DNA of 64,000 bases. Source: a virus. The position numbers and the translations under genes are program-made. The notes under the pieces were generated by a model. That model was given only the letters and a program-made list of their open reading frames with translations. It ran no database searches and was not told where the DNA came from. The stretch covers positions 2,858 through 66,857 of IMG/VR virus record IMGVR_UViG_3300031840_000582. One strand, written 5' to 3'. How positions within the stretch are numbered: position 1 is the stretch's first letter; every line of letters begins with the position of its first letter. Positions 6,807 to 40,842 of the stretch are shown here, piece after piece.

Positions 6807-9800
6807 ATGGGTATTTTTGTAAATTCTGTTAACGTTGATGACGCGACTCTTACTATCGGCCTTAGTGCGGAAGAACTTTATCGACCAATCAACCCAGACT
6901 GCCCTCCACCCGCTGACAGTAGCTCAGGCCCCGGTGGTGGCCTTAACATAATTCCAAGTGATCCTGTAACTGAACCTCCTTCTGGTTACACTCCCGAAGC
7001 CGGTGATAGTGGCTGGTATTATGATGAATGTATGGATTGCTGTTACCCAGTGACAGATAAAATCCTTAATTATATGGAGTTTAAGGTTGCGACATTTCTT
7101 TCGCCGGGTTATACTCAAAACATTACTTGTGAGGAAGTAGACGTAGACGCTATAGTCACCTCCGCTGAAGCCGCTGGTGACGCTGTTGTTGTGGCTATTG
7201 ACCCAAGACTTCATGCTGCTGGGACGCTATCTAATGCGTTGGTCAAGGAGAAGAGCGACGGTTCTCGCGCTTATGAATTAAATTATAATGCCACCATTGA
7301 ATTGCCTGACGGGGCAGACACTGATCACATTGAAGTGGTGTCATATGTAAATATTGATTTTGAACGAATGAAGAACGATTACGGCTTTGAGGCAGGCAAT
7401 AATTTGCAAGCAGAGACTATAAAATTGATGGCACTTAAGGCGAATTTAGATAAGGTTCGAGAGCGTGGCAAAGTAAACGAGACAATCCCATACTTTGTGA
7501 ATCCTGCAACAGGCAAGACATGGACCGGGCCAGTTCATTATCACCCGCCGACAAGAGGCTATATGGGCGGCGCAAAGCACACGATGTTACCACAGCCCCT
7601 GTTGGTCCAGAGAACAATGCCGAACTTAAAAGTTGTGGATAATTCCACTACAAAAAAAGAACTATTAGGTTTGGATTTAGGCCGCGCATTAACAAATGAC
7701 CCATACGATGAAATTGATAGACTAAACAGCACCGGGACTAAACAGCAAGTTGCCAAGACGTTTGTATCAGATCCTGTGTTGTCAAAAACTAACGACGGAA
7801 AAGTTAGCTTTGTCTTTTACATGGATCCTGAATCTGTGGTCAGAGCTAACAGTAAATTTCCCGGTATTAGGGAGCAGGGCATTTATCGAAGAACCCCAAT
7901 TGAAAGCATTCAAATTTTTCGTGAGCGTGCTATCGAAGGTGCCGATCTCACAGAACTAGGCGTCAAAAAAGTTGGCAAGGACACCAGAGGCAAGCAATCA
8001 CAAGAGAGGGAGCTAGTGGTTTATTCGTCAGACCAAAAGTCATACGGCGAAGACATGCAAACTATGAACGGTGCAGTGAAAGATGTGTACTCAAGAGGAC
8101 TACAAACTAATAGATATTCCGTTGATGAAGACTTTGATGGCATCAAGGAAGTGGAAGTAGGGATTATTTCTGAGACACCGGTTCGAAACATCACTAGTAG
8201 AGGATACCGTGCATTTACAGTAGAAGACATGCAAATCTCTAATAGAACTTCAGGTAAATTTAGATATTCCACTGAGATTGAATTTAAAGATCCAACTGTA
8301 GCTTACATTAATCGAAAGTTAGCCGTGATTTGCGAAGCCAAAGATAAGTTAGAGGAACTAGTTTCGTTCATTGACAACGTAAAAGCTTACGATATGTTGA
8401 ACAAAAAATACACTAGAGATTATAAGAAAAGGTACAAGAGGGCACATACTAGAACCGCTAAGATGGTGACTAGAGAGGTCATGAAGCTGCTAAAAGCAAT
8501 TACCGGACAAAGCTTTAGTGCGGCACAAAATTATATGATATCTAACCTAAGTGTTCAGAACGGCAGTCCTCAAGGTATTGAAAATATAATTGAAGTGATA
8601 GGCTCAATAGAAGACAAGCTAAAGCTAGCTCTTGGCAACAGTATTGACAATGCAAATACAAATAATGCTGGCGCTGAAAAAGATCCTACTATCTCCAAAA
8701 AGTCAAATGCAGATTTGGGGATGGTTCGCGTAGAAAAAGAGTTTGATGCAATTGTCGATCAAACAAATGAGCGCCCATTGAAACTAGACTACACAACCGC
8801 AAGGGCCAATAGCTTCCCCAGCATGACTGACAAGTCTTACGAAGAGAGAATCAATTTAGAACGTAGAAAGTTCTACTCAGACTCGAATACTCGTCGTAGG
8901 AATAACGCTAAAAGTAGGTCTAATTTACCTAAAAGAAAGCTTCAAGCTCTTAGTAGAAGTCGTAACAGATCAGATTACAGCTACCTTACACCAGCATTTG
9001 TTAGATGTGGCACAACAACCATGGATCTGGTTGGTGACAATACACAGATAGACAATCTAGAACAGTATAAGAGTATTAATTTTAGGTCCGCAAGAGGTAA
9101 TAAGCCACTGTCTGTTGAAGCACCACCTGAAAATACTAGCATGCTAGAATTATCTGAAGACATATTGACAGAGTTGGGAATCTCTGTAACGCTACGCCCA
9201 ACAGAATCAAGTAAAGACAAGCAGTACAATAGTGATAGCACTAAGGTATTTGGATCAAAAAGCTTTGCTGACAAAAACACTGAACCGGATAGGATTGCAA
9301 AGAAGCCAAAGAGAGATAGATTTGTGATGTCGGCCACCGAAACCATTGCCACAGCGGTATTAAACAAGGCTCAAGATACCGACATATTAAATCCAGATGC
9401 GCCAATTAATCAAGACCAAGAAATTCCAGACATAACGGATGCGACAGAGAGTCGAAAGCTTGCAATTTCAAAATTTGATGTCCTAAGAGAGGATAACATC
9501 TTAAATGATCTTGATGCATCTAAGATTGAACAAATGCCAATTGGCTTACGAGCATTGTTTGATTCAAGAGACGATGCAAGATTTAATTGGGTCGATCATG
9601 ATCTTGACCTTGTAAAGGATCCAAGAGTGCAAGATATATTTACTTACAATCAAGGTAGCACTGTAAAAGTTGAATATTTAGCCGACTTTGAATCAACCTT
9701 TGGCGGCAAATCACTTAAGAAGCCGCGATACTCTCCACTAACAAAAGAAGTGATAGATAGTGTCCCTGAGGGAGAATCCCTTCTCGTCAGATTGCGACCA

Positions 9801-10157
9801 ATTAGTCTAAATGAATTTGGCGTTCCAGACGATTCGGTGCCCAGCTTAGGTGCTGATATATTGACAGAAAACTTTTTTATCACCTCGACTACGCCTTCAA
9901 CAACAGGAGTAGTTGCAGTTGACCCGGTTACAAGAATGGAGGAGAGTCCAGAGATTACTGATGTCGAAACGCAAGTAAATGCAGTATACGACATGATCCC
10001 TGACGAGCCTTCGACTGTATCATATGTTTGTGTCGCAGGCGTTTCTGGCCGCATCCAGTCTGCAAATCTAGGCGCAACACTTTTTGCTGGCGATTCACGC
10101 CCCGGCCCTTTAATGCGGCCAGTTAGTTCAACGAGCACAGGAGGCGGCGGTTACTAA
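6807..10157 (+). CDS. Large hypothetical virion protein
   Basis: 1116-aa ORF with SD AGGAG at ~6793, inside the structural operon. Its stop overlaps the next ATG (TAATG). Confidence 0.5.
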   Translation: MGIFVNSVNVDDATLTIGLSAEELYRPINPDCPPPADSSSGPGGGLNIIPSDPVTEPPSGYTPEAGDSGWYYDECMDCCYPVTDKILNYMEFKVATFLSPGYTQNITCEEVDVDAIVTSAEAAGDAVVVAIDPRLHAAGTLSNALVKEKSDGSRAYELNYNATIELPDGADTDHIEVVSYVNIDFERMKNDYGFEAGNNLQAETIKLMALKANLDKVRERGKVNETIPYFVNPATGKTWTGPVHYHPPTRGYMGGAKHTMLPQPLLVQRTMPNLKVVDNSTTKKELLGLDLGRALTNDPYDEIDRLNSTGTKQQVAKTFVSDPVLSKTNDGKVSFVFYMDPESVVRANSKFPGIREQGIYRRTPIESIQIFRERAIEGADLTELGVKKVGKDTRGKQSQERELVVYSSDQKSYGEDMQTMNGAVKDVYSRGLQTNRYSVDEDFDGIKEVEVGIISETPVRNITSRGYRAFTVEDMQISNRTSGKFRYSTEIEFKDPTVAYINRKLAVICEAKDKLEELVSFIDNVKAYDMLNKKYTRDYKKRYKRAHTRTAKMVTREVMKLLKAITGQSFSAAQNYMISNLSVQNGSPQGIENIIEVIGSIEDKLKLALGNSIDNANTNNAGAEKDPTISKKSNADLGMVRVEKEFDAIVDQTNERPLKLDYTTARANSFPSMTDKSYEERINLERRKFYSDSNTRRRNNAKSRSNLPKRKLQALSRSRNRSDYSYLTPAFVRCGTTTMDLVGDNTQIDNLEQYKSINFRSARGNKPLSVEAPPENTSMLELSEDILTELGISVTLRPTESSKDKQYNSDSTKVFGSKSFADKNTEPDRIAKKPKRDRFVMSATETIATAVLNKAQDTDILNPDAPINQDQEIPDITDATESRKLAISKFDVLREDNILNDLDASKIEQMPIGLRALFDSRDDARFNWVDHDLDLVKDPRVQDIFTYNQGSTVKVEYLADFESTFGGKSLKKPRYSPLTKEVIDSVPEGESLLVRLRPISLNEFGVPDDSVPSLGADILTENFFITSTTPSTTGVVAVDPVTRMEESPEITDVETQVNAVYDMIPDEPSTVSYVCVAGVSGRIQSANLGATLFAGDSRPGPLMRPVSSTSTGGGGY

Positions 10158-13100
10158 TGAGTTTAACTAAAAAATACGTTTACGTCCATCACTGTAGTTT
10201 AGCTGAAGACACGCCTGATAATTTTAGAAAAGTTATGGGTCGGGCTTGGGTGCCAAGCTCTAGACTTGGGTTACAGTACGGATTTAATGTAGATCCTCCC
10301 GTTATGGATATGACATTTGGGCCTTACTTAGAGTGGGAGCACGATTATTTCTTCTCGACCCAAGTACCAGCAACAACTCAGCTAGTCTCAATTAAACCAA
10401 ATCCGTACTACTTCCCGCCGATCCCTGATGCCGAAGAGCCTTGTTGCGGTTGGTATGCATACCTCGGAAGGTTCTTTGCAGATCATTTTAGTAGTGGTAA
10501 TCCGCTACAGATCCTAAGAGGAGTTCTAAAAGACAGAGTTGCTGGCTATAGAGCGTCCCTGTCTGATCTCGGCTACTCTGGGCCAATCGACCAGAAGTAT
10601 TTCCCAGATGACTCGTGCGGAAGAAGGCTAAATTATGGGCCAATCCAGTCCGACGACCCTGAAGACACGCCACCACCTGAGGTTAATATTCCGGGTGCGA
10701 TGGCCTTGGTCTCAAATTCAATGGCCGTTCCTGTTAACCCAAACCAAGCCGGTCCAGAACCAGAACAAGCCGAAACAAATAGGGCAAAAGTCAGGTTGTT
10801 CAGAGACCTTTGGTTTCAAATGTTCGCGCCTTTTTCAGAGCTTGAAGATGGGTATCTTGAAGGTAAGCCTAAGGCAATGGTTGGCGATGTTAAATTTAGC
10901 TATAACTTTTTCCTAGAGGCCTACGAGCGTCAGCTCAGAGGAAATACTTTACCAGAAATTAGAATACCAAACTTATACTTGTCCGTGTATAAGGACGGAT
11001 CAGTACCATATGTGCTATATCTAAGTGAAAATGTAGGCTGTAGATTCAAAGAATTTGCTAAGTTAGTTCTGCAAAAGGGATACACAGAGTACCTAATTCC
11101 TGTTAAGCAGCAACCGTTTTTACAAGATAAGAATGTGTATTCTAAATCATTCCCGATGGATGCCACAGTTTCTTTCAGCACTGACAGGAATACTTTTGTT
11201 GCAGATGCTCTTGAGGACTCGAAACTAGAGTGTAACATGCTCCGTAGAGTGTCGGAAGGCGAGGTCAGGCTAGACGTTGCAACCACACCGCCAACTGCTT
11301 TTACTCCAACCTCTGAAGGCAACCTCAAGCCACCCCCTGAAGAGACAATGGAGTTTGCCTATGCAAAGCGTTACTACGATACTTTGTCGAACGCATATAC
11401 TCCAAAAGCAAGCGTGCCAAATCAAGTAAGCAATTATAAAGCATCTTACGGCCCGTTTGGTAGAGACTTGAGGACGTTCGATTTTTATCAATGGATGATG
11501 AGTCTACCAGATATCCCTGCTTCTTCAGTGTCGTTCCCCGGCGATCATGTTTTTCTTGGTAACCAAAACGATTCCACCGACATGGCCTTAAGGTCCGGCC
11601 TATACCAAAGAGACTTGTCATACTTGGCGAATTACTTTATTATGTCAGGTAAGGTTAACCAGATAGCCGAAACCCATCTCAGAACTTATCAGCAAATGAT
11701 GAGAGGTGACACACCACACTCCGAAACTATTCTTTATAAATTATCTAAGTATTCGACAGCCGAACTACAACAGCAGTTAGAGACAGTTCTATCTTCTAGT
11801 CCAATGTTGCGCGATCAGATCTTGCTTGGTAACGATGGGACCGCTGCCTTGGCTGGTGAAGACTTTGAAAAACTTGAAGCTATATTCGACGAAATTGAAC
11901 AGATCGGCATTACTCCAATTCAAAATGTGTGGATTCCCAACTCTAACTCAATTGACATTTTTGAATATGTTGATACACAAGTAAAGTATAATAAAGAGTA
12001 CACATACGTTGTAACTGCATACCAGTTGTCTGTTGGGACCGAGTATTTTTACTCTCAGTATTTTGGCCAAAGACCAGAAGATCCACAGCCACAGCCATGT
12101 GAAAACGCTACAATTGGTAATCAAGCCATTGCAGGAGTCTACAATCTACAAGAGTCACCTCTGGATGTAACAGGGGTTCCACCAACAGGAACTGCTGTAC
12201 CGCTATTAAGAATTGTTTACGATGCCTCGCTATCCGAAGGAGAAAAGTACAATCTTATAAACCAATTACTGTCAGAGAACAGCCAGTGGAAAAGCTTAAC
12301 TGGTGGTGGAACGGTTGATACCTGCGAAGGTACTGGCATGGCAATCCTCAGAAGGCAGATCTCCGATGGAGGCACCGACCAGTCAGGGCAAAGTTTTGGT
12401 CCCGAATTTGAATACCTTGTGCTTTGTTACTGTTTTGATTTCTTCAACCCCAATCCAGATCAGTGGTCTGTTGTAACAATAATTGAAAACAAGCAAGTAA
12501 GATCATCCGGCGATCAAACAGCCGGGACTGGTAAAAACGAACCAGCTTGTACAATTTATGGTCAGCTTAGAGTTGCCCTACGAGCTGAATTAAATTTAGT
12601 TGACGCATCATCGATAACTGACGAGATCTTAGAAGTGTTCGGCGTCACAGACCCTGCGGACCTCCCAACCTACCAGAGAACAACCACGGTCAGAGGGCGA
12701 CTAAGAGCAGAGCAGTGTCCAGACGGTTGGATAGAGGGCAAAGTACAGAGACAAGTTACAACAGCAGAAGCCACATCATATGCAGCAGGATTTGAGGTAA
12801 CTGCACTTGGGGCCACTGAACTTAAAGCAGTCTGCGAATGTCCCGAGCCTGAACCTTGCAGGGAAACCTTCTTGGTTACAACATTCCCAAGTTTAAAAGT
12901 TCATGAAATTCCGTACATGTTGTGGTCCGGCAAGGTCACAGACTCTCATCCCGTAGGCCCCGATGTAGAAATTAATCCTTACAGAGCTGTTAATAACGAG
13001 ATGTTATTCCAGATAGGTGCAGGTCTTGGCGATTACTACGACCGCCCAATTGCCATTTTTGAAAGAGAGAAGGCAATGTTCGAAGAGCTGTTAAGATCTC

Positions 13101-13951
13101 AGCGGTCAACTGATGGTAATGTCTTGTTTAGTTCAGACGATCCAGTTAGAGGGTTTGAGTCACTTATGTTAACTGACAAGCCCACAAGATATACTGACTT
13201 CTCAACCGGCGTAAGAAAACTTATATCAACAGAGGTTGCAGAAAAACCAAATCAATATGCAGATGCAGTATCTATGGTCGAAACTCTTGTTCCGAATCAA
13301 AAATATTATTATATCTTCAGATCTATTGATGTTCATGGGCACGTTTCAAACCCAACACCAATTTACGAAGTGGAACTAGTTGACACAGACGGTGCCATTT
13401 ATCCATTAATTAATATTTATGAACCAGATCCAAGCTTGCCTGTCGATCTAAGCAAGCAAGGCCAGAGACTATTGCAGATTAGGCCTGAGTACCTACAATC
13501 AGTATTAGATGTAGAATCATCTGGCTTGTCCGATGCGACAACAGCCGGTACACCTACAGGCGGACCCGCTGGAGATCTCAAGCTAGGAACAAGAAGTGAG
13601 AGACTGTGGGATAAGAACTTTAAGATGCGCGTCACATCGTGTGAAACTAGAAGGATGCTAGAAATCAATCTCAAATTTAAGACTGAGCATATTGCACTGG
13701 ACGCCTGCCCCCCAGAGTACGAAAAGACTACGATTAGTGCTAACGATGGCCTCAGTATTCCTGATGGAGTAATGGATTTGATTCCGGGTAGCGAAAGTAA
13801 GCCTTCAAACGGTTCAGCTCCGAGATCTGGAGGCGGCTCCACTTCTGGTGGTACAACCGTGACAGCAGATGTTAGCAACACTATATCACTAATAAACGGC
13901 TCAGGTGGAGGCACGACTGGCGGTGGATCAACTGGCGGTTCTTCATATTAA
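10157..13951 (+). CDS. Large hypothetical virion protein, possibly with Fn3/Ig-like modules
   Basis: 1264 aa. Motifs YVDTQVKYNKEYTYVVTAY and LVPNQKYYYIFRSIDVHGHVSNP resemble fibronectin-III strands. Gly/Ser-rich C-terminal tail. Confidence 0.5.
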   Translation: MSLTKKYVYVHHCSLAEDTPDNFRKVMGRAWVPSSRLGLQYGFNVDPPVMDMTFGPYLEWEHDYFFSTQVPATTQLVSIKPNPYYFPPIPDAEEPCCGWYAYLGRFFADHFSSGNPLQILRGVLKDRVAGYRASLSDLGYSGPIDQKYFPDDSCGRRLNYGPIQSDDPEDTPPPEVNIPGAMALVSNSMAVPVNPNQAGPEPEQAETNRAKVRLFRDLWFQMFAPFSELEDGYLEGKPKAMVGDVKFSYNFFLEAYERQLRGNTLPEIRIPNLYLSVYKDGSVPYVLYLSENVGCRFKEFAKLVLQKGYTEYLIPVKQQPFLQDKNVYSKSFPMDATVSFSTDRNTFVADALEDSKLECNMLRRVSEGEVRLDVATTPPTAFTPTSEGNLKPPPEETMEFAYAKRYYDTLSNAYTPKASVPNQVSNYKASYGPFGRDLRTFDFYQWMMSLPDIPASSVSFPGDHVFLGNQNDSTDMALRSGLYQRDLSYLANYFIMSGKVNQIAETHLRTYQQMMRGDTPHSETILYKLSKYSTAELQQQLETVLSSSPMLRDQILLGNDGTAALAGEDFEKLEAIFDEIEQIGITPIQNVWIPNSNSIDIFEYVDTQVKYNKEYTYVVTAYQLSVGTEYFYSQYFGQRPEDPQPQPCENATIGNQAIAGVYNLQESPLDVTGVPPTGTAVPLLRIVYDASLSEGEKYNLINQLLSENSQWKSLTGGGTVDTCEGTGMAILRRQISDGGTDQSGQSFGPEFEYLVLCYCFDFFNPNPDQWSVVTIIENKQVRSSGDQTAGTGKNEPACTIYGQLRVALRAELNLVDASSITDEILEVFGVTDPADLPTYQRTTTVRGRLRAEQCPDGWIEGKVQRQVTTAEATSYAAGFEVTALGATELKAVCECPEPEPCRETFLVTTFPSLKVHEIPYMLWSGKVTDSHPVGPDVEINPYRAVNNEMLFQIGAGLGDYYDRPIAIFEREKAMFEELLRSQRSTDGNVLFSSDDPVRGFESLMLTDKPTRYTDFSTGVRKLISTEVAEKPNQYADAVSMVETLVPNQKYYYIFRSIDVHGHVSNPTPIYEVELVDTDGAIYPLINIYEPDPSLPVDLSKQGQRLLQIRPEYLQSVLDVESSGLSDATTAGTPTGGPAGDLKLGTRSERLWDKNFKMRVTSCETRRMLEINLKFKTEHIALDACPPEYEKTTISANDGLSIPDGVMDLIPGSESKPSNGSAPRSGGGSTSGGTTVTADVSNTISLINGSGGGTTGGGSTGGSSY

Positions 13952-19491: not shown

Positions 19492-20769
19492 ATGAGAATT
19501 ATACTAGAGAACTGGAATGAGTTTATTAATGAAGCCAACAAGGAATCAGAAGCCCAGCGCGCCGTCAACAATTTAAAACTAGAGCCTAAGCAAGCTGAAG
19601 CAGCTCTTGCCATGTTGCAGGGCGAAAAGTCTCAACTTGAAGAAGGGGTGATGGATTCAATTAATAGTCTAGTTAAAAGATATGGCAAGCGAGCGATTAT
19701 GGCCGCTCTTGCAGCGTCACTTTCTGCTGGTGCTGTCCTTCCTAAAGATGCCTACGCTTCTGGTGGCGAGTATAATGTTGATACTGATGCGGATGCTGCT
19801 GCTCAAGTAATGGACACTGGGTCAGAGCAGGCCGTGGACGCAGCCGCTGCTCTTGGTTTTGTTAGCACATATGTAGACCTCAAAATCGAAAAAGGAGCAG
19901 ACCGAGTGGATACGAACCTTAAGTTTGCCCCTATCATGGATGCTTTGGCAAAAGCAAAAGGCGGCGATATGTCTGCTTATAAATCTCTTAGTAGCAAAAA
20001 CAAGTCAATGTATGATTTCTTTATGGGTAAAGTAAAAGACATGAAAACAAAAGATGCAAAAGCCTATGATGGATATTCAGCTTTGGGAGCTGGAACAAAA
20101 GTATCACAGAAGGGATTACAGGAGAACACTGCAATGAGACTTACAAAGAAACAGTTAAAACAAATTATTAAAGAAGAGCTTCAAAAAGCTATGAATGAAG
20201 TATCAGAAAAAGAAGTTGTGAAGATGGCCCAGAAGATGGCTCCTAATGCTCCTAGTACGCCTGTTAAGGAAAAAGGACAGGAGGCAATTTCATTGCTCTT
20301 ACAAGATCCAAAGATCCGAAATATTGTTGGTGGCATAGTCGCAGACATAGCAAATAGCGGAGACTCAGAAAATGTCATGTCTGAGGACAAGGAAGGTGGT
20401 AGTGCAGCAGCAAGCCTTCTCTCTCTAGGGACGTTTGGCGCGCCTATGTTATATATGGCCATGGGCTCTCCCGGCTATACTGCTCTTCTAAACTATCTGG
20501 GTGGCGATGCCTTGGCAGCAAACCTTTCTGTTCAGCTTGGCATACCCCTCGCAGCGCTAGCTACTGCGTTAATCGCTGGCATGGGCGCTGCGGCATACAA
20601 AGATATTATGGATCCTAATGTTGACACAATTGTGGGACCATACAACGCAGAAGATTTCTCTGATTTGAAGATACCATACAAGCCTGATGGATCTGCCCCA
20701 ACGCAAGGTATTGGTCGTAACATTTTTGGCGACCCACAGGTACAGCCTCTAAGAACAAGGAAAAAATAA
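19492..20769 (+). CDS. Putative internal head (cargo) protein, apparent fusion of two units
   Basis: Starts MRIILENWNEFINE. Internal in-frame ATG at 20134 with its own SD begins MRLTKKQLKQIIKEEL. Hydrophobic Gly/Ala segments. ACTATTTA at 19448. Confidence 0.5.
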   Translation: MRIILENWNEFINEANKESEAQRAVNNLKLEPKQAEAALAMLQGEKSQLEEGVMDSINSLVKRYGKRAIMAALAASLSAGAVLPKDAYASGGEYNVDTDADAAAQVMDTGSEQAVDAAAALGFVSTYVDLKIEKGADRVDTNLKFAPIMDALAKAKGGDMSAYKSLSSKNKSMYDFFMGKVKDMKTKDAKAYDGYSALGAGTKVSQKGLQENTAMRLTKKQLKQIIKEELQKAMNEVSEKEVVKMAQKMAPNAPSTPVKEKGQEAISLLLQDPKIRNIVGGIVADIANSGDSENVMSEDKEGGSAAASLLSLGTFGAPMLYMAMGSPGYTALLNYLGGDALAANLSVQLGIPLAALATALIAGMGAAAYKDIMDPNVDTIVGPYNAEDFSDLKIPYKPDGSAPTQGIGRNIFGDPQVQPLRTRKK

Positions 20770-20770
20770 A

Positions 20771-21472
20771 ATGAGACTTACCAAATCACATCTAAAGCAA
20801 ATTATTAAAGAAGAATCTCAAGCTGTTTTGGCAGAGAGGTGGGAACTACAACGTCAGCGTTCCATCATGCTTGCTGAGTCAAAACGGATTGATAATTTGC
20901 ACGAGATTAGCCTTTCAGATGTAGCCAGTTTTGCTAAGAATGAGCTTCCTCATCTCGCACTAGATGTGGCCGGTCTAATTCCGGGCTTTGGAGAAGGGGC
21001 CGATTTGGCCAATGCTGGCCTATACATTAGCAAGGGCGAATACTTTATGGCAGCTTTGTCTCTTCTATCAATGATCCCAGCGGTGGGAGATGTTGTAGGA
21101 AAGGGCGGAAAGTTCTTGACAAAGTTTGGCGATGACGCTGGAAAGGCGTCAAAGTATTTGGGTGGGTTACTTAAAAAGTACATGCCACAAATTCAAAAGC
21201 TATTGAAGACACTTAAGGACAACCCAGTTGTCGGGCCTCATGTTGACGACATCCTGCGTGCAGTCACAAAATATATTGACGACGCTGCTGAGGTCGGAGC
21301 GAAGGCAGGCAAAGAAACACTTCAAAGACTCCAGCAGGCGATTCAGACCAGACCAGTTAAGCCGATTGAAGGTGGTACTTTGAAGAAATTAGCTGTTCGC
21401 ACAAAGGCAAGAAAAGATCGCGAGAAAGCGGCCTCGGCACTTCAAGGCAGAGAACAGGAGGCAGCAGAGTGA
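20771..21472 (+). CDS. IIKEE-leader protein with a pre-toxin TG-like domain
   Basis: MRLTKSHLKQIIKEE leader. HLALDVAGLIPGFGEGADLANAGLYISKGEYFMAALSLLSMIPAVGD resembles the PT-TG pattern of polymorphic toxins. Confidence 0.6.
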   Translation: MRLTKSHLKQIIKEESQAVLAERWELQRQRSIMLAESKRIDNLHEISLSDVASFAKNELPHLALDVAGLIPGFGEGADLANAGLYISKGEYFMAALSLLSMIPAVGDVVGKGGKFLTKFGDDAGKASKYLGGLLKKYMPQIQKLLKTLKDNPVVGPHVDDILRAVTKYIDDAAEVGAKAGKETLQRLQQAIQTRPVKPIEGGTLKKLAVRTKARKDREKAASALQGREQEAAE

Positions 21473-21744
21473 TTCTTAATGAACAAACACTCAAGCGAAT
21501 CATAAAAGAAGAGCTAGTAACTGTTCAGTTACGGCTGTTACAAGAGAACCCTGCATTGCTAACCAAGTTTGTACCTATGATTCAAAAGCTTGCACCGCAA
21601 ATTCAAGATCTTGGCCCTGCGATTGAACAGTATGGTCCCGTGATGACCCAGCTAATTAGCATGGTTAAGGATCTAGATGATGAGAAGTTACAGCAAGTCA
21701 TGAGCCTTGTGGCAAGTGTAGGCCAATTAGGCAAAGACGACTGA
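21469..21744 (+). CDS. Small IIKEE-leader protein
   Basis: MILNEQTLKRIIKEEL...LLQE. GTG start with SD AGGAGG. Confidence 0.55.
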   Translation: MILNEQTLKRIIKEELVTVQLRLLQENPALLTKFVPMIQKLAPQIQDLGPAIEQYGPVMTQLISMVKDLDDEKLQQVMSLVASVGQLGKDD

Positions 21745-21782: not shown

Positions 21783-22127
21783 ATGCAAATTACCAAAGAA
21801 AGGCTCAAACAAATTATTAGAGAAGAAATGGAAGTCACGCTCACCAATGAAGAGGCTGGTGAACTATTTGGCGAAGAAGTACAGCAACAGCTTGACGAAG
21901 TAGATATGTCTTCCATGGTAGACCCACAGCTCATGGAAATCGTCGCAGGCCTTTTCAAGATGGGCGTGAACATTGGTTTACCCTTAGTAATCGCCGCACT
22001 TTCTCGTATGGGATACGAGGGTATCGCATCAGCTTTGTCACAAGAGCCAATGGCACGCAAGGACAAAAATTTCCTTATGAATTACATCCAGCAAGAACTC
22101 GAAGGATATAAAGAATTCGATAAATAA
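21783..22127 (+). CDS. Small IIKEE-leader protein
   Basis: MQITKERLKQIIREEME...LDE followed by a hydrophobic segment. Confidence 0.55.
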   Translation: MQITKERLKQIIREEMEVTLTNEEAGELFGEEVQQQLDEVDMSSMVDPQLMEIVAGLFKMGVNIGLPLVIAALSRMGYEGIASALSQEPMARKDKNFLMNYIQQELEGYKEFDK

Positions 22128-22130
22128 TCC

Positions 22131-22159
22131 TTGACAGCAGAGCTGCTGCGTGTTATAAT
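22131..22159 (+). promoter_or_regulatory. Consensus sigma70 promoter
   Basis: TTGACA-17 nt-TATAAT with extended TGn, directly before the Mre11-Rad50 gene. Confidence 0.85.
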
Positions 22160-22174
22160 ATATTATAAATTCAA

Positions 22175-25100
22175 GTGGGGGTAAACTTGAAGTTTGCACA
22201 TATCGCGGATACACACATCCGCAATTATAAGTATCATAAAGAATATCGAGCTATCTTCGATCAAATTTATGACCGATTGAAAAAAGAGAAAGTTGACTAC
22301 ATTGTACATTGTGGCGACTTAGCACATACAAAAACACAACTTTCTCCTGAATATTTTGATTTGGCTGCATCGTTCCTGAGTAATCTTGCGGACATTGCGC
22401 CTACCTATATCATTCTTGGAAACCATGATGGCAACCTTAAGAACGAGCACAGGCAGGATGCAATTACGCCTATTGCAAAGGCACTAAACCATCCAAATCT
22501 ACATCTCTTGCGAGACGCAGGCGAGACTGTGCTAAGCGATGACTTAGCATTTAATGTTCTATCTGTGTTCGATGAGGAGAATTGGGTCAAGCCATCCAGC
22601 GACGAACGTATCAATATCGCGCTGTATCACGGTTCTGTATCAGGCGTTAAGACTGACACAGGCTGGGTGATGACACATGGCGACCACCCAATCGAAGTCT
22701 TTGAGGGACATGATTATGTGTTCCTTGGAGATATTCACAAAACGAACCAGATCCTTGATGATGAGGGTCGGGTAAGGTATCCGGGCTCCACTGTTCAACA
22801 GAACTTTGGTGAGACAGATGACAAAGGATTCTTGCTGTGGAACATCCAAAGCAAAGATGACTTTACTTGTGACCACATCGTAATTCCGAATCCCAAGCCT
22901 TTTATAACAATAAATCTAACCCCCACCGGGCGCATGCCCAAAGGCTTATCTGTTAAAAAGGGATCGCGTTTACGACTTGTGTCTAACAATAATTTGTCTC
23001 TTGAAGCGATGCGGAAGGCAGTAGATGTCGCAAAACAACGCTTCAAGCCCGATACCATATCGTTTCTTAACCGCGCCGCTGGGGAGCGTGGCAACGTTGA
23101 AGAAATCACCGATAGTATTCATCAGGATGATATGCGTAACCCGCAGATTCAAGAGGAATTAATTCGTGAGTATCTGGTAGACTACCAAGTTACCGAAAGC
23201 TTGATGAAGAAGGTACTAGACCTAAACTCACTATACATCAAGAAAGCCGAAGAAAGCGAAGAAATTTCTAGAAACATTAAGTGGCGTATTGGTGAGCTAC
23301 AATGGGATAATTTGTTTAACTACGGAGACAGCAATCGAATTGACTTTGCTCGTCTGAACGGAACTGTTGGTATCTTTGGAAAGAATTATTCTGGCAAGTC
23401 CAGTATTATTGATAGCTTATTGTATACAATTTTTAATACAACTTCCAAGAACGAGCGTAAGAACGTAAATATTATCAACCAGAACAAAGAAGATGGTTCA
23501 GGCGAAGTGGTCATCAACATTGGTGATGAACAATATTACATCCGACGAAGCTCGTCTAAATACACAAAGCGACTCAAGGGGGTCGAGACTCTTGAAGCAA
23601 AAACCGATCTTGACTTTTTCAAGATTGATGCGAACGGAGAAAAGGTAAGTTTAAATGGACTCACAAGAAACGACACAGACAGAAACATCAGAAAGGTATT
23701 CGGATCCATTGATGACTTTCTACTCACTAGTTTGTCTAGCCAGTTGGATAGTCTTTCCTTTATTAGGGAAGGCAGCACAAAACGGAAGGAAATCTTGGCA
23801 AAGTTTCTCGACTTGGAGATCTTCGAAAAGAAATTCAAACTAGCAAAAGACGATGCTGCTGATATGAAGGGTGCTCTTCGACGCTTGGAAGGCAGGGAGT
23901 ATGACGCCGAGATCGAAGCAGCAGAGCAAGAGCATGCTCAATGTGAAGAGAACCTAGAAGAACAGCAGTCTGTTTGCGAGACTCTCAGAAACGAAATATC
24001 CAAATTAGTTTCTGGCATTGAAGAAGTAGATCGTATGATCGATTCTATCCCAGCGGAAATGATTGATATCGTAAACGTTAAGGCTGAACTAGTGCGTAAG
24101 CGTTCCTTGTTAGAGAGAACACAGAATAGTCTAAAAAATAACAAGACAAATTTACAAGAGAAAGAAGCACTCGTTGAGAAAATTGAAGAGTTTCTAGACA
24201 ACTATGATATTGAAGACTTAATTAAGAAGCAAAGCGATTCAAGCAATCTCTGGAATCGGATCAATGATTTGCGAGCGGAGCTTGAACGAATTGATAAAAA
24301 GGCCTCGTCCCTAAACGACCCTGAGTTTCTAAGAGGTTGTAAGTGTCTTCGTGAAGCAGAGGACGCACTGGCTAAGAAGCCAGAGGTTCAAGAGAAGATC
24401 GATATATTTACCACTGAGCACCGTGCGATGGACCCGGAGGGTGTAGACAAGAAGGTGGAGCAATATAACTCTTTGGTTGCTAAGAAAGACCAAACTCAGA
24501 GAGATATTACCAACACACAATTGCTAATCGCTCAGAATGAAAATTCTATGAGTAGCCTAATCTCTGATATCGAAGCTTTGGAGGAAAAAGAATCTTCTTA
24601 CGAAGATAACAAAGAAGCGATTGAAAACTTAGAAGCTCTGCTGGCACAGAAGCAAGAGAGTGAGTCTGCTCTACAAGACCGTGAAACAAAGCTACAAGCT
24701 TGTGAAAAAGAGATTGTTACCCATCATCGTCTTGTTGGTTCGTTAGAGCAGAAGGTGCTAAATATCAAAGAACAAAAGCAAGAGTACATTGATCTTCGTG
24801 AGCAGTTTGCGGCATATGATCTATACATGCGCTGTATGCACCCTAATGGTATTGCTTATGATGTCATTAAAAAGAAGCTGCCGGTTATCAATCAAGAGAT
24901 TGCGAAGGTTCTCGCCAACCTCACTACCTTTGAGGTTCTTTTTGAAGAAGAGGGAAATAAGCTAGATATCTTTATCAAGCACCCAAGCCATGACCCTCGA
25001 CCGCTATCAATGGCATCTGGGGCAGAGAAAACAATGGCTGCAATGGCGATTCGTTTGGCTTTCCTAGCCGTATCTAATTTACCAACCAGCGATATCATGG

Positions 25101-25285
25101 TTCTGGACGAGCCGGGTACTGCTTTAGATGAAGAACATTTGCAGTCCTTTACGCAGCTTCTTGACATGATTAAGGCACATTTCAAGACCATTTTGCTAAT
25201 CTCGCACCTTGACTCTTTGAAAGATGTTGTAGATTCAACACTTGACATTTCTAAGAAACAAGGTTATGCTTATATAAATCAGTAA
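22175..25285 (+). CDS. Fused Mre11/SbcD nuclease and Rad50/SbcC ATPase (T4 gp47-gp46-like)
   Basis: Phosphoesterase motifs DTH, GDL, GNHD, GDIH. Walker A GKNYSGKSS, long coiled coil, signature ASGAE, Walker B VLDEP, H-loop ISH. Confidence 0.9.
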   Translation: MGVNLKFAHIADTHIRNYKYHKEYRAIFDQIYDRLKKEKVDYIVHCGDLAHTKTQLSPEYFDLAASFLSNLADIAPTYIILGNHDGNLKNEHRQDAITPIAKALNHPNLHLLRDAGETVLSDDLAFNVLSVFDEENWVKPSSDERINIALYHGSVSGVKTDTGWVMTHGDHPIEVFEGHDYVFLGDIHKTNQILDDEGRVRYPGSTVQQNFGETDDKGFLLWNIQSKDDFTCDHIVIPNPKPFITINLTPTGRMPKGLSVKKGSRLRLVSNNNLSLEAMRKAVDVAKQRFKPDTISFLNRAAGERGNVEEITDSIHQDDMRNPQIQEELIREYLVDYQVTESLMKKVLDLNSLYIKKAEESEEISRNIKWRIGELQWDNLFNYGDSNRIDFARLNGTVGIFGKNYSGKSSIIDSLLYTIFNTTSKNERKNVNIINQNKEDGSGEVVINIGDEQYYIRRSSSKYTKRLKGVETLEAKTDLDFFKIDANGEKVSLNGLTRNDTDRNIRKVFGSIDDFLLTSLSSQLDSLSFIREGSTKRKEILAKFLDLEIFEKKFKLAKDDAADMKGALRRLEGREYDAEIEAAEQEHAQCEENLEEQQSVCETLRNEISKLVSGIEEVDRMIDSIPAEMIDIVNVKAELVRKRSLLERTQNSLKNNKTNLQEKEALVEKIEEFLDNYDIEDLIKKQSDSSNLWNRINDLRAELERIDKKASSLNDPEFLRGCKCLREAEDALAKKPEVQEKIDIFTTEHRAMDPEGVDKKVEQYNSLVAKKDQTQRDITNTQLLIAQNENSMSSLISDIEALEEKESSYEDNKEAIENLEALLAQKQESESALQDRETKLQACEKEIVTHHRLVGSLEQKVLNIKEQKQEYIDLREQFAAYDLYMRCMHPNGIAYDVIKKKLPVINQEIAKVLANLTTFEVLFEEEGNKLDIFIKHPSHDPRPLSMASGAEKTMAAMAIRLAFLAVSNLPTSDIMVLDEPGTALDEEHLQSFTQLLDMIKAHFKTILLISHLDSLKDVVDSTLDISKKQGYAYINQ

Positions 25286-33566: not shown

Positions 33567-33595
33567 ACGCGGGTAGCGCCCGCGTTAATTTATTT
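33567..33595 (+). terminator. Hairpin, putative terminator or attenuator
   Basis: ACGCGGG-TAGCG-CCCGCGT followed by TAATTTATTT. Confidence 0.5.
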
Positions 33596-33605
33596 GGAGA
33601 TTAAT

Positions 33606-34220
33606 ATGGCAAAACAACTTTTAAGAGAATACTATGCCCTATGTGATGGGGGAGTCTGCCAAGACTTACTGACAGAACAAGAAAAGAAAGACATGTCCGA
33701 GGGCAAAAAGTTCTACATGACAGGCTGTATGCAGAAGTATAATACTCCAAACGGCAATGGTAGAGTCTACTCTAAAAATATTCTCCAGCGTGAAGTTGAG
33801 AACTATTGGAAGCTTGTTAGAGAGCGTAGGGCTCTTGGCGAGCTAGATCATCCTGATGATTCGGTTATCAACCTTAAAAATGCATCTCACCTCGTTATTG
33901 ATATGTGGTGGGATGGCGAAGCTCTAATGGGCAAGGTCGAGATCCTTAACACCCCATCTGGCAAGATTTTGCAACAATTAGCAGAGTCAGGCGTCACGCT
34001 TGGTATTTCATCAAGAGGCCTCGGCTCTGTTCGACAGGAACGAGGCAAAACAATTGTAGAAGACGACTTTCAGCTAATCTGTTTTGACTTTGTTTCGGAA
34101 CCCTCCACCCCCGGTGCTTTCATGCACGTTAAAAAAGGCATGATGGAACACAAGGAGCCAAATATCTTTACAAAGTCAGATAGACTATACAGATCACTAA
34201 ACGACATTTTGAGAGACTAG
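33606..34220 (+). CDS. Prohead maturation protease (T4 gp21-like)
   Basis: NGNGRVY, GELDHP (His), GISSRGLGS (Ser), DFVSEPS (Asp). Confidence 0.95.
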   Translation: MAKQLLREYYALCDGGVCQDLLTEQEKKDMSEGKKFYMTGCMQKYNTPNGNGRVYSKNILQREVENYWKLVRERRALGELDHPDDSVINLKNASHLVIDMWWDGEALMGKVEILNTPSGKILQQLAESGVTLGISSRGLGSVRQERGKTIVEDDFQLICFDFVSEPSTPGAFMHVKKGMMEHKEPNIFTKSDRLYRSLNDILRD

Positions 34221-40800: not shown

Positions 40801-40842
40801 TAGATTATATCTAAAATTATACTAAAAAAGGAGGTGATAAAA

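What the first reader, a model, noticed from the sequence alone, without database searches (positions are those of the whole stretch)
20951..21111. Pre-toxin TG-like domain in a leader-tagged phage protein
Seen in sequence: HLALDVAGLIPGFGEGADLANAGLYISKGEYFMAALSLLSMIPAVGD follows the leader and an LHE site, and is followed by a basic helical C-terminus. Established: this pattern resembles the PT-TG domain that precedes toxin tips in bacterial polymorphic toxins, and MuF toxins show that phage heads can carry toxins. Inference: a membrane-inserting or translocated effector delivered from the head. No recognisable toxin tip is present, and an immunity role for the overlapping small ORF at 21469 is unproven.
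Basis: partly seen in the sequence, partly recalled or inferred. Interest (0 to 1): 0.7.

Follow-up and report, generated by a model that had tools for sequence, protein, structure and literature searches.

The report
Leader-tagged phage protein with FIX-like domain
A T4-like marine phage puts a probable "load me into the head" leader on a small helical protein whose core domain is otherwise found just in front of the toxin tips of bacterial contact weapons; that domain is not PT-TG, and the phage protein carries no toxin.

Summary
The motif is real and lies at the stated place, in ORF 20771-21472 (233 aa) of an uncultured T4-type myovirus.

PT-TG is not supported:
- The Pfam PT-TG model finds nothing.
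- Profile-profile comparison with genuine PT-TG domains is at noise level (hhalign probability 0.4-0.5%).

The underlying intuition is right. The same roughly 60-115-residue domain sits between RHS cores (or PAAR-like domains) and nuclease or NADase tips in many bacterial polymorphic toxins. Its detectable relatives are DUF4112 (88.8%) and the central domain of Vibrio proteins built as Tox-PAAR-like, X, AHH (93.5%). That is the architecture of VP1415, where X is called FIX.

The phage protein has no toxin tip, and close homologues keep the same C-terminus. The overlapping 91-aa ORF carries the same leader and has no homologue in 40 related loci, so it is not an immunity gene.

The leader is a peptide-level tag:
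- It occurs 4 times here and on 58 ORFs in 40 related viral loci.
- It is followed by [LI]xE sites.
- The phage encodes a gp21-type (S77) prohead protease.

Best reading (about 0.5): a capsid-targeted, protease-processed internal protein whose FIX-like domain acts at the host membrane or spike after ejection. Packaging, cleavage and membrane action are inferred, not shown.

The parts
20771..21472 (+). ORF of 233 aa: leader, then a long helix, then a FIX/DUF4112-like domain, then a basic tail.
   Evidence: AlphaFold2 model is all-helical, mean pLDDT 82.5.
20771..20815 (+). Leader MRLTKSHLKQIIKEE (residues 1-15), a peptide tag shared with neighbouring genes.
   Evidence: The regex finds 4 copies in the window, all on the + strand. 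It is 16/25 identical to residues 215-239 of the upstream ORF. There are 58 leader ORFs in 40 viral loci. Conservation is at peptide level, because codons differ.
20816..20905 (+). Rest of the probable propeptide (residues 16-45), with [LI]xE sites at E22, E36 and E45 (LHE).
   Evidence: E36, R39 and the LHE region are conserved in 20 homologues. [LI]xE is enriched upstream of the domain across the family.
20951..21112 (+). Core of the domain (residues 61-114), with two 'hydrophobic helix + IPxxG(E/D)' motifs ending in GKGGK.
   Evidence: hhalign to DUF4112 gave 88.8% and to the FIX-position domain 93.5%.
21113..21295 (+). Helical extension of the conserved domain (residues 115-175).
   Evidence: Alignments of family members end at query residues 170-189 in 83 of 179 proteins. 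pLDDT is 89-96 over residues 121-170.
21296..21469 (+). Basic helical tail (residues 176-233). No known domain.
   Evidence: It is conserved in close homologues.
19492..20769 (+). Upstream neighbour of 425 aa with two leaders: ENWNEFINE-type at its N-terminus, and MRLTKKQLKQIIKEE at residue 215 (nt 20134).
21469..21744 (+). Overlapping 91-aa ORF with the same leader (LKRIIKEE). It is a fellow tagged protein, not an immunity candidate.
   Evidence: It resembles residues 132-169 of the 233-aa protein (E 5e-4). Pfam YqfQ scores 30.3 bits. It has no homologue in 40 viral loci.
21783..22127 (+). 114-aa ORF with the same leader (LKQIIREE) and a hydrophobic Gly-rich stretch.
33594..34220 (+). Prohead protease of the T4 gp21 type (Peptidase_S77), the presumed processing enzyme.
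   Evidence: phrog_207 E 1.3e-53. PF03420 E 2.1e-30.

Best explanation
The gene encodes a T4-internal-protein-like cargo.

Proposed mechanism:
1. Its N-terminal leader targets it to the prohead core.
2. The phage's gp21-type protease removes the leader at one or more [LI]xE sites. The last is LHE at residue 45.
3. This leaves a mature protein of about 188 residues that begins about 15 residues before a FIX/DUF4112-like helical domain.

In bacteria the same domain forms the N-terminal part of the toxin fragments of RHS and PAAR-linked polymorphic toxins, nearly all of which act in the cytoplasm. In the phage, the ejected protein would use the domain to engage or cross the host cytoplasmic membrane. 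Its cargo is only a basic helical tail, not an enzyme.

Shown:
- the leader family;
- the [LI]xE sites and their enrichment;
- the S77 protease;
- the homology of the domain and its pre-toxin position in bacteria.

Inferred: packaging, cleavage, ejection and membrane action.
For: Leader:
- It occurs 4 times within 1.7 kb and nowhere else in the window.
- It is found at the start of 58 ORFs out of 2460 ORFs in 40 related viral loci, all on the coding strand and with unrelated downstream sequences.
- 24 of 56 same-residue codon pairs in the window, and 46% in the viral loci, use different codons. Selection therefore acts on the peptide.

Protease:
- The window encodes Peptidase_S77, Portal_T4 and Gp23.
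- 7 of the 10 largest related viral records encode S77, including both records that are at least 90% complete.
- T4 gp21 cuts after L/I-X-E, and a 10-residue capsid targeting sequence loads the T4 internal proteins (passages read in PMC9026906 and PMC3012670).

Sites:
- [LI]xE lies upstream of the domain in 103 of 145 family proteins, against 65.9 +/- 4.4 in shuffles (maximum 79 of 500 shuffles).
- That is 249 sites against 118 +/- 9 in shuffles, and against 26 sites in equal-length downstream control stretches.

Domain:
- 2011 relatives were found.
- In bacteria it lies after RHS repeats and before PT-HINT, Ntox15, EndoU, LHH/HNH or NTP_transf_2.
- In Vibrio it lies in RHS tips behind ClpV-Hcp-VgrG or VgrG.
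- Toxins fused to it among 149 members are nucleases, an NADase and the like.
- hhalign to the central domain of Vibrio Tox-PAAR-like...AHH proteins gave 93.5%, E 2.3e-7, score 40.9. The reversed control scored 11.0 and 40 column shuffles scored at most 18.4.
- hhalign to DUF4112 gave 88.8%, score 35.2, with controls at most 15.9.

Precedents from the literature:
- FIX is required for T6SS delivery of an effector (PMC6688995).
- An analogous Gly-zipper N-region of Tde1 permeabilises the inner membrane for toxin entry (PMC10240207).
Against: - There are no virion proteomics and no cultured relative. tblastn of four domain variants against 50,697 phage records found nothing, and 4 related phage genomes lack the family.
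- The gene lies between the primase and SbcCD genes, not in the head module. No T4-type late promoter was detected.
- The leader (15 residues or more, part of a predicted helix spanning residues 5-67) is longer than the T4 capsid targeting sequence.
- [LI]xE could partly reflect amphipathic-helix periodicity, and family members are not independent.
- Hydrophobicity is modest. Only residues 92-108 reach a Kyte-Doolittle value of 1.9. The model folds residues 74-175 as a confident soluble-looking helical bundle.
- Published work assigns FIX to docking on VgrG, not to membrane crossing (PMC13324451, PMC13617354).
- The named FIX reference sequences and the CDD model could not be compared directly.
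Confidence: 0.5

Rival explanations
1. Spike-docking passenger. The FIX-like domain does in the phage what FIX is proposed to do in T6SS. It docks the protein on the VgrG-like hub or spike (gp27/gp5 homologues) or in the tube lumen, so the protein is delivered from the tail tip rather than the head.
For: FIX-containing RhsF co-immunoprecipitates with VgrG3, and the FIX 'clade domain' of Tse15 is reported to bind a VgrG extension (passages read in PMC13324451 and PMC13617354). T6SS and T4 tails are homologous machines (established knowledge). The domain homology rests.
Against: In most bacterial relatives found here, the domain lies after the RHS core, in the fragment next to the toxin. It also occurs in Actinomycetes, Clostridium and SpvB/TcdB-type RHS proteins, which are not T6SS cargo. 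That argues for a role not tied to VgrG. The shared leader with [LI]xE sites fits head proteins. The profile did not match any PDB chain at a credible E-value.
Confidence: 0.15
2. Assembly-only core or scaffold component. The leader and long helix place it in the prohead core. The protease then degrades it and it has no role after ejection.
For: There are four [LI]xE sites within the first 45 residues, and a predicted helix spans residues 5-67. T4 core proteins are processed in this way (PMC9026906).
Against: No [LI]xE site lies downstream of residue 45, so a 188-residue product would survive. The domain is shared with delivered toxins. The gene is far from the head module.
Confidence: 0.12
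3. Protein acting in the infected cell. Possible roles include a membrane-associated lysis-timing, superinfection-exclusion or replication-associated factor. The leader would then be an oligomerisation or localisation helix rather than a capsid tag.
For: The genes lie next to primase, RuvC and SbcCD. Several tagged neighbours have Gly-rich hydrophobic stretches. DUF4112 relatives are cellular proteins.
Against: This reading does not explain why many unrelated small proteins share one N-terminal peptide followed by [LI]xE sites in phages that carry the S77 protease.
Confidence: 0.1
4. One reading: a PT-TG-bearing toxin or effector delivered from the head, with the overlapping 91-aa ORF as its immunity protein.
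For: The domain occupies the pre-toxin position in bacterial homologues. Tails after the domain are highly variable across the superfamily: 119 tails of at least 60 aa fall into 68 clusters, 53 of them singletons. There is a weak PT-TG lead from the ESM Atlas.
Against: PT-TG tests were negative. No toxin family was found in this protein. None of 10 long leader-tagged variants carried a toxin family. The C-terminus is conserved in close homologues. The 91-aa ORF carries the same leader and has no homologue in 40 related loci.
Confidence: 0.05

Closest known systems
[quoted passage not shown]
   Same: It is a helical domain of about 80 residues lying N-terminal to nuclease toxins and behind PAAR-like, VgrG or RHS parts. 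The profile of the phage-type domain aligns with the central domain of Vibrio Tox-PAAR-like...AHH proteins at 93.5%. The partner toxins found here (Ntox15, NUC-type endonuclease, AHH, RHS) are those in the CDD model's name.
   Different: Here it sits in a phage protein behind a capsid-type leader, with no toxin and no T6SS. Relatives also occur in Actinomycetes, Clostridium, Treponema and Planctomycetes, whereas FIX was described as almost exclusively Gram-negative and T6SS-linked. The named reference sequences and the CDD model were not available for a direct test.
DUF4112 (Pfam PF13430)
   Same: It has the same double 'LD..G(L/I)(I/L)P..GD' motif. hhalign gave 88.8%, E 2.5e-6, over 56 columns spanning both motifs. 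7 of 149 family members hit the Pfam model at E<=1e-3.
   Different: The window protein itself does not reach the model, and close homologues score about 12 bits against a cut-off of 23.3. DUF4112 proteins are small cellular proteins of unknown function.
PT-TG pre-toxin domain (Pfam PF14449)
   Same: It holds the same place in the architecture, just before polymorphic toxin tips. By eye the layout is similar: LxxDxAG, then a hydrophobic helix, then PxGK..GKG. Atlas feature search listed PT-TG clusters in 5 of 30 hits at score 0.90.
   Different: No HMM hit was found. hhalign gave 0.4-0.5%. The invariant DPxTGE of PT-TG is not present. PT-TG is also unrelated to DUF4112 and to the FIX-like set by the same test.
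T4 internal proteins (IPI, IPII, IPIII, Alt) with the capsid targeting sequence
   Same: A short shared N-terminal peptide sits on otherwise unrelated small proteins and ends in L/I-X-E. The phage has a gp21-type protease, and the genes lie outside the head module (PMC9026906, PMC3012670).
   Different: The leader sequence is different and longer. Packaging and cleavage are not shown. The cargo domain is shared with bacterial toxins.
MuF polymorphic toxins of temperate phages (PMC5576092, search listing only; Zhang et al. 2012, PMC3482391, passages)
   Same: Both involve a phage-head-associated protein family linked to polymorphic toxin modules.
   Different: There is no MuF domain and no toxin domain here. 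The phage is a lytic-type T4-like myovirus.
N-terminal glycine-zipper region of Agrobacterium Tde1 (PMC10240207)
   Same: It is a Gly-rich helical region placed before an Ntox15 nuclease and is needed to cross the target's inner membrane. The paper reports that it resembles the C-termini of phage tape measure proteins.
   Different: Homology was not tested, because the Tde1 sequence could not be fetched. The one Ntox15 protein retrieved from 301 genomes of the order searched lacks the domain.

Membership tests
PT-TG (PF14449) | Match to the Pfam PT-TG model (cut-off 23.5 bits). | tested here: not met
   No hit at E<=10 for the protein. None in 8 homologues. None at E<=1e-3 in 149 members. 0 matches in the phage record. 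0 of 4 bacterial genomes that carry the domain gave a match.
PT-TG (PF14449) | Profile-level similarity to genuine PT-TG domains. | tested here: not met
   11 PT-TG domains were fetched from Bacillota. hhalign gave 0.43% and 0.49% with P 0.12. hmmsearch gave at most 7.7 bits. The PT-TG profile was narrow (Neff 2.2-2.6), so a very distant link is not excluded. There is a weak Atlas lead.
PT-TG (PF14449) | Conserved TG motif (DPxTGE in the examples fetched). | tested here: not met
   T42, G43 and P40 are invariant in A3. The phage family has no such motif; its invariant residues are G68, D78, N81, P103, G106 and D107.
PT-TG (PF14449) | Lies directly N-terminal to a toxin module. | tested here: not met
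   This holds for bacterial relatives, but the phage protein has no toxin module.
FIX domain | Homology to the FIX region of effectors with the VP1415 architecture (PAAR-like, FIX, AHH). | tested here: met
[quoted passage not shown] Together with the matching region of a sixth AHH ORF of 540 aa (L168, whose N-terminus was not tested for a PAAR-like domain), their central region matches the domain profile: hmmsearch E 4e-7 to 2e-5 and hhalign 93.5%, with controls scoring at most 18.4 against 40.9. The test is indirect, because the proteins are identified by architecture and not by name.
FIX domain | Hit to the CDD FIX models or to the PSSM of Jana et al. | not testable with these tools
   CDD is not on hand, and the supplements of PMC6688995 are closed.
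FIX domain | Genetic linkage to T6SS (VgrG, PAAR or adaptor genes nearby; a genome with T6SS). | tested here: not met
   The gene is in a phage, between primase and SbcCD. Some bacterial relatives are T6SS-linked (L145 has ClpV-Hcp-VgrG; L147 has VgrG). Others are of SpvB/TcdB type or come from Gram-positive bacteria.
FIX domain | Required for delivery of the attached effector. | not testable with these tools
   This needs an experiment.
DUF4112 (PF13430) | Match to the Pfam model (cut-off 23.3 bits). | tested here: not met
   The window protein gives no hit. Close homologues score 11.7-12.5 bits. 7 of 149 members hit at E<=1e-3.
DUF4112 (PF13430) | Profile-level similarity. | tested here: met
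   hhalign gave 88.8%, E 2.5e-6, against 15.9 for the reversed control and at most 14.8 for 40 shuffles. A2 against A4 gave 68%. Only 3 DUF4112 sequences were used.
T4-type capsid-targeted internal proteins | One short N-terminal peptide shared by unrelated proteins of the phage. | tested here: met
T4-type capsid-targeted internal proteins | Leader ends in an L/I-X-E site, and the phage has a gp21-type protease. | tested here: met
   Sites at E14, E22, E36 and E45. The sites are enriched across the family. PF03420 is present. 7 of 10 related records have it.
T4-type capsid-targeted internal proteins | Present in virions in processed form and ejected with the DNA. | not testable with these tools
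   No cultured relative was found.
Polymorphic toxin / immunity pair (including MuF toxins) | Toxin domain at the C-terminus, with a conserved immunity gene directly downstream. | tested here: not met
   There is no toxin or MuF family. The downstream ORF shares the leader and has no homologue in 40 related viral loci.

The most novel reading that the evidence does not exclude
The FIX/DUF4112-type 'pre-toxin' domain may be a general device for getting a polypeptide to or through the cytoplasmic membrane of a target cell, shared between phage ejection proteins and bacterial contact weapons. On this reading, T4-like marine phages load a whole family of such proteins into the head behind interchangeable protease-removable leaders (at least five leader types) and inject them. 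RHS, PAAR and Tc-type toxins use the same domain as the leading end of their released toxin fragment. The phage proteins would then offer a toxin-free system in which to find out what FIX does.
Probability: 0.25. Interest if true: 0.75.

Novelty: new variant of a known kind. Interest (0 to 1): 0.55.

Why it matters
FIX is used as a marker for T6SS effectors, but its mechanism is still open. Published work points to docking on VgrG.

This domain family reaches well beyond T6SS:
- It occurs in T4-type phages, behind capsid-type leaders and without any toxin.
- It occurs in Actinomycetes, Clostridium and Tc-type RHS proteins.

That argues for a delivery-side role. It also links phage internal or ejection proteins with polymorphic toxins at the level of a shared module.

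The work further documents a large, diverse leader-tag system in uncultured marine T4-like phages. For annotation, such proteins should not be called PT-TG proteins or toxins.

Tried and rejected
- PT-TG was rejected.
- An attempt to widen the PT-TG profile returned only near-identical Bacillus cereus-group proteins: the best 120 of 264 were at least 97% identical. It did not help.
- PT-TG was not found in 101 Actinomycetes genomes.
- Fold searches gave nothing usable. Foldseek against PDB and BFVD gave no match at E<=1e-3. VIA-align wide matched only the long N-terminal helix to coiled coils, Z about 6. This says nothing about residues 74-175.
- PDB sequence and profile searches gave nothing credible.
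- The link to Tde1 could not be tested. Only 1 of 301 genomes of the order searched had Ntox15, and that PAAR-like protein lacks the domain.
- Cultured phages: tblastn with four domain variants found no match. Megablast of 9 kb found no match. 4 related phage records lack the family.
- T4 late-promoter motif TATAAATA: 5 matches, all on the - strand, not enriched.
- Two alignment-based locus scans failed because alignment A1 was too diverse. They were repeated with A2.
- The first clustering of C-terminal tails was cut too early, inside the domain, and merged 161 proteins. It was redone after the full domain.
- The scan's earlier notes held nothing for this genome or sequence.
- My regex for an actinobacterial leader type failed to count that group, so no count is given for it.
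Full report
**Observation**

ORF 20771-21472 (+) encodes 233 residues. The quoted string is residues 61-107 (nt 20951-21091), and the GKGG that closes the motif ends at 21112. Upstream lie the leader MRLTKSHLKQIIKEE and four [LI]xE sites (E14, E22, E36, E45). Downstream lies a predicted helical region whose last 58 residues are basic (pI 10.4).

**What kind of genome**

- The window is part of a 66.9-kb IMG/VR virus record, estimated 37% complete.
- It encodes a large terminase subunit, a T4-type portal (PF07230), a gp21-type prohead protease (PF03420, 33594-34220) and a gp23-type capsid protein.
- The nearest deposited capsid proteins are those of Flavobacterium phage immuto, Microcystis phage Mel-JY01 and Rhodothermus phage RM378, at 40-49% identity.
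- Around the gene lie an HNH endonuclease, RuvC, primase and a fused SbcD-SbcC.

**Is it PT-TG?**

No test supports this.

- Pfam at E<=10 gave only a sub-threshold DAHL hit for the protein.
- There was no PT-TG hit in 8 homologues, or in any of 149 family members at E<=1e-3.
- PF14449 found nothing in the phage record, or in 4 of 4 bacterial genomes that carry the domain.
- I fetched genuine PT-TG domains from Bacillota. 1 of 81 and then 6 of 41 genomes had them, giving 12 places of which 11 were usable. None were found in 101 Actinomycetes genomes.
- hhalign of the phage family against these gave probability 0.43%.
- A wider profile of 178 domain segments gave 0.49%, P 0.12.
- hmmsearch in either direction stayed at or below 7.7 bits.

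By eye the two domains have a similar layout. An ESM Atlas feature search listed PT-TG clusters in 5 of 30 hits at score 0.90. By that tool's own figures, this level is reached by chance 4-10 times in 100. I treat it as a lead only.

**What it is related to**

A word-indexed search found 23 metagenomic homologues (226-407 aa). It also found ten weaker hits (E 3e-8 to 2e-5), most of them Vibrio vulnificus RHS tips. Their Pfam families were Ntox15 (5), AHH (1), Endonuclea_NS_2 (1), RHS (1) and none (2).

A full HMMER scan found 2011 relatives at E<=1e-3, matching query residues of about 55-175.

Among 149 of them, Pfam found these families once each: Endonuclea_NS_2, CdiA-CT RNase A, TNT, Ntox46, GH-E, WHH, Colicin-DNase, PAAR, VRR_NUC and others. 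DUF4112 was found 7 times.

In 46 bacterial loci the domain lies about 250-400 residues from the C-terminus of proteins of more than 2000 residues, or near the start of short ones. The taxa were many Actinomycetes, Treponema, Planctomycetes, Pseudomonas and Clostridium. In eight ORFs scanned, its position was:

- after RHS repeats and before PT-HINT (two Actinomycetes);
- before Ntox15 (Pseudomonas taiwanensis);
- before EndoU (Clostridium);
- before LHH/HNH;
- before NTP_transf_2;
- two ORFs had no family.

In Vibrio, 7 of 201 genomes carry it, always in RHS tips or orphan cassettes. One is behind ClpV-Hcp-VgrG, one is behind VgrG, and one is in an SpvB/FG-GAP/RHS protein.

**The family name**

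hhalign of the domain profile against three DUF4112 domains gave 88.8%, E 2.5e-6, score 35.2, over both motif halves. The reversed control scored 15.9 and 40 column shuffles scored at most 14.8. The tool's own run of A2 against A4 gave 68%.

Two papers led me to FIX:
- A review describes VP1415 as PAAR-like, then FIX, then AHH (PMC12724144, passage).

I then tested this architecture:
- I fetched AHH proteins from Vibrio. 25 of 201 genomes had them, and 28 ORFs were examined.
- Six gave near full-length matches to the domain profile, with per-sequence E 4e-7 to 2e-5.
- Five of the six are ORFs of 767-814 aa that also have an N-terminal Tox-PAAR-like domain (5 of 5 genomes).
- hhalign of the domain profile against this central region gave 93.5%, E 2.3e-7, score 40.9. 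The reversed control scored 11.0 and shuffles scored at most 18.4.
- The phage-only profile gave 31.7%, and PT-TG against the same region gave 0.6%.

I conclude that the domain belongs with FIX and DUF4112, not with PT-TG. The caveat is that named FIX reference sequences and CDD were not available.

**No toxin, no immunity**

- The protein has no toxin family.
- Twenty close phage homologues are conserved over the whole length. Some add a C-terminal extension that includes DUF5661.
- Of 10 long leader-tagged variants, none had a toxin family. One had DUF5661 and one had pentapeptide repeats.
- Across the whole superfamily, tails after the domain are very diverse. 119 of 179 proteins have tails of at least 60 aa. 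These fall into 68 BLAST clusters, 53 of them singletons.
- The 91-aa ORF that overlaps the stop codon starts with the same leader. It resembles residues 132-169 of the 233-aa protein (E 5e-4). It has no homologue in the 40 related viral loci. That is not how immunity genes behave.

**The leader**

- The motif occurs four times in the window, at 20155 (inside ORF 19492-20769), 20792, 21490 and 21804. All are on the + strand.
- In 40 related viral loci, 58 of 2460 ORFs start with it. All are on the coding strand, with up to seven in one 16.6-kb locus and with unrelated downstream sequences.
- Synonymous codon differences show that the peptide is what is conserved: 24 of 56 same-residue pairs in the window, and 46% in the viral loci.
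- Other leader types precede the domain in other phage proteins. These are short MKLxxLHE, RIDPRYFLxE, QLIWEAY and ENWxxF, and they again end in [LI]xE.
- [LI]xE is enriched upstream of the domain. It occurs in 103 of 145 proteins against 65.9 +/- 4.4 in shuffles, giving 249 sites against 118 +/- 9, and against 26 sites in downstream control stretches. Relatedness of the sequences inflates these figures.
- 7 of the 10 largest related viral records encode Peptidase_S77. The three without it are 20-53% complete, and both records that are at least 90% complete have it.
- T4 gp21 cuts after L/I-X-E, and T4's internal proteins share only a 10-residue capsid targeting sequence (PMC9026906 and PMC3012670, passages).
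- Earlier AI notes of this scan describe similar leader systems in other T4-like phages. These are leads, and two of the eight shown were marked 'part of it fell'.

**Structure**

The AlphaFold2 model (149-row alignment) is all-helical, with mean pLDDT 82.5 and pTM 0.56. It has a helix at residues 5-67 and a confident bundle over roughly residues 74-175. No fold or sequence match to solved structures was informative. Only residues 92-108 are clearly hydrophobic (Kyte-Doolittle 1.9).

**Mechanism**

I commit to the following, with confidence about 0.5: a capsid-targeted, protease-trimmed internal protein whose FIX-like domain works at the host envelope after ejection.

The membrane-side role is inferred from three things:
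- In bacteria the domain is the leading part of toxin fragments that must reach the cytoplasm.
- It occurs outside T6SS.
- The Tde1 precedent (PMC10240207).

Against this:
- Published work points to docking of FIX on VgrG.
- The gene sits among replication genes.
- No late promoter was seen.
- No deposited phage carries the family, so no virion proteome can be consulted.

**Novelty**

My literature searches for FIX together with bacteriophage returned 7 papers, none about phage-encoded FIX by title or abstract start (listings only). Jana et al. describe FIX as almost exclusively Gram-negative and T6SS-linked. I rate this as a new variant of known kinds: T4-type tagged cargo, and the FIX domain.

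Noticed in passing
window 19492-20769 (internal leader at 20134): This 425-aa ORF carries two leaders: an ENWNEFINE-type leader at its N-terminus and a full MRLTKKQLKQIIKEE leader at residue 215. It also has Gly-rich hydrophobic stretches in its second half. Metagenomic homologue P0009 likewise has two leaders, at residues 8 and 94. This may be a polyprotein-like fusion of two tagged cargos, or a missed internal start.
   Followed up: partly
window 22131-22159: A perfect sigma-70 consensus promoter (TTGACA, 17 nt, TATAAT, with TG; 12 of 12) lies directly after the tagged-gene cluster and before the SbcCD gene at 22175.
   Followed up: no
window 22175-25285: A single 1036-aa ORF fuses an SbcD/Mre11-like nuclease (phrog_100, residues 5-366) to an SbcC/Rad50-like ATPase (phrog_77, residues 304-1034).
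   Followed up: no
window 3-5720, 6807-10157, 10157-13951: Three very large ORFs (at least 1905, 1116 and 1264 aa) and four further ORFs up to 17246 have no PHROG family at E<=1e-3.
   Followed up: no
window 40834-42729: The major capsid protein is 631 aa. The Gp23 Pfam model's best-scoring stretch covers residues 336-612, and deposited relatives cover only about 60% of the protein. It therefore seems to have a large extra N-terminal or inserted region.
   Followed up: no
window 21469-21744: The 91-aa tagged ORF passes the Pfam YqfQ-like cut-off (30.3 against 27 bits, residues 26-70). It also repeats the 'MPQIQKL...GP' helix pattern of residues 132-169 of its neighbour.
   Followed up: partly
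L038 2165-3661: In a 156-kb viral record, one protein combines the leader, the FIX-like domain and pentapeptide repeats (PF00805, E 2.3e-8).
   Followed up: partly
P0037, P0044, P0127, P0180; L033 7941-8501 and 8646-9245; L018 2136-2822 and 7467-8000: Some proteins carry two copies of the domain. Some viral loci carry two genes encoding the domain, in tandem or a few kb apart.
   Followed up: no
L029 (527-kb viral record, CheckV 100%): A jumbo-phage-sized record also carries a gene encoding the domain (312 aa, domain at residues 190-271) and an S77 protease.
   Followed up: no
L141, L142, L147 (Vibrio): Cassettes of the domain plus a toxin recur as short orphan ORFs downstream of full RHS genes, each followed by small ORFs. 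This is the usual layout of displaced RHS tips with immunity genes.
   Followed up: partly
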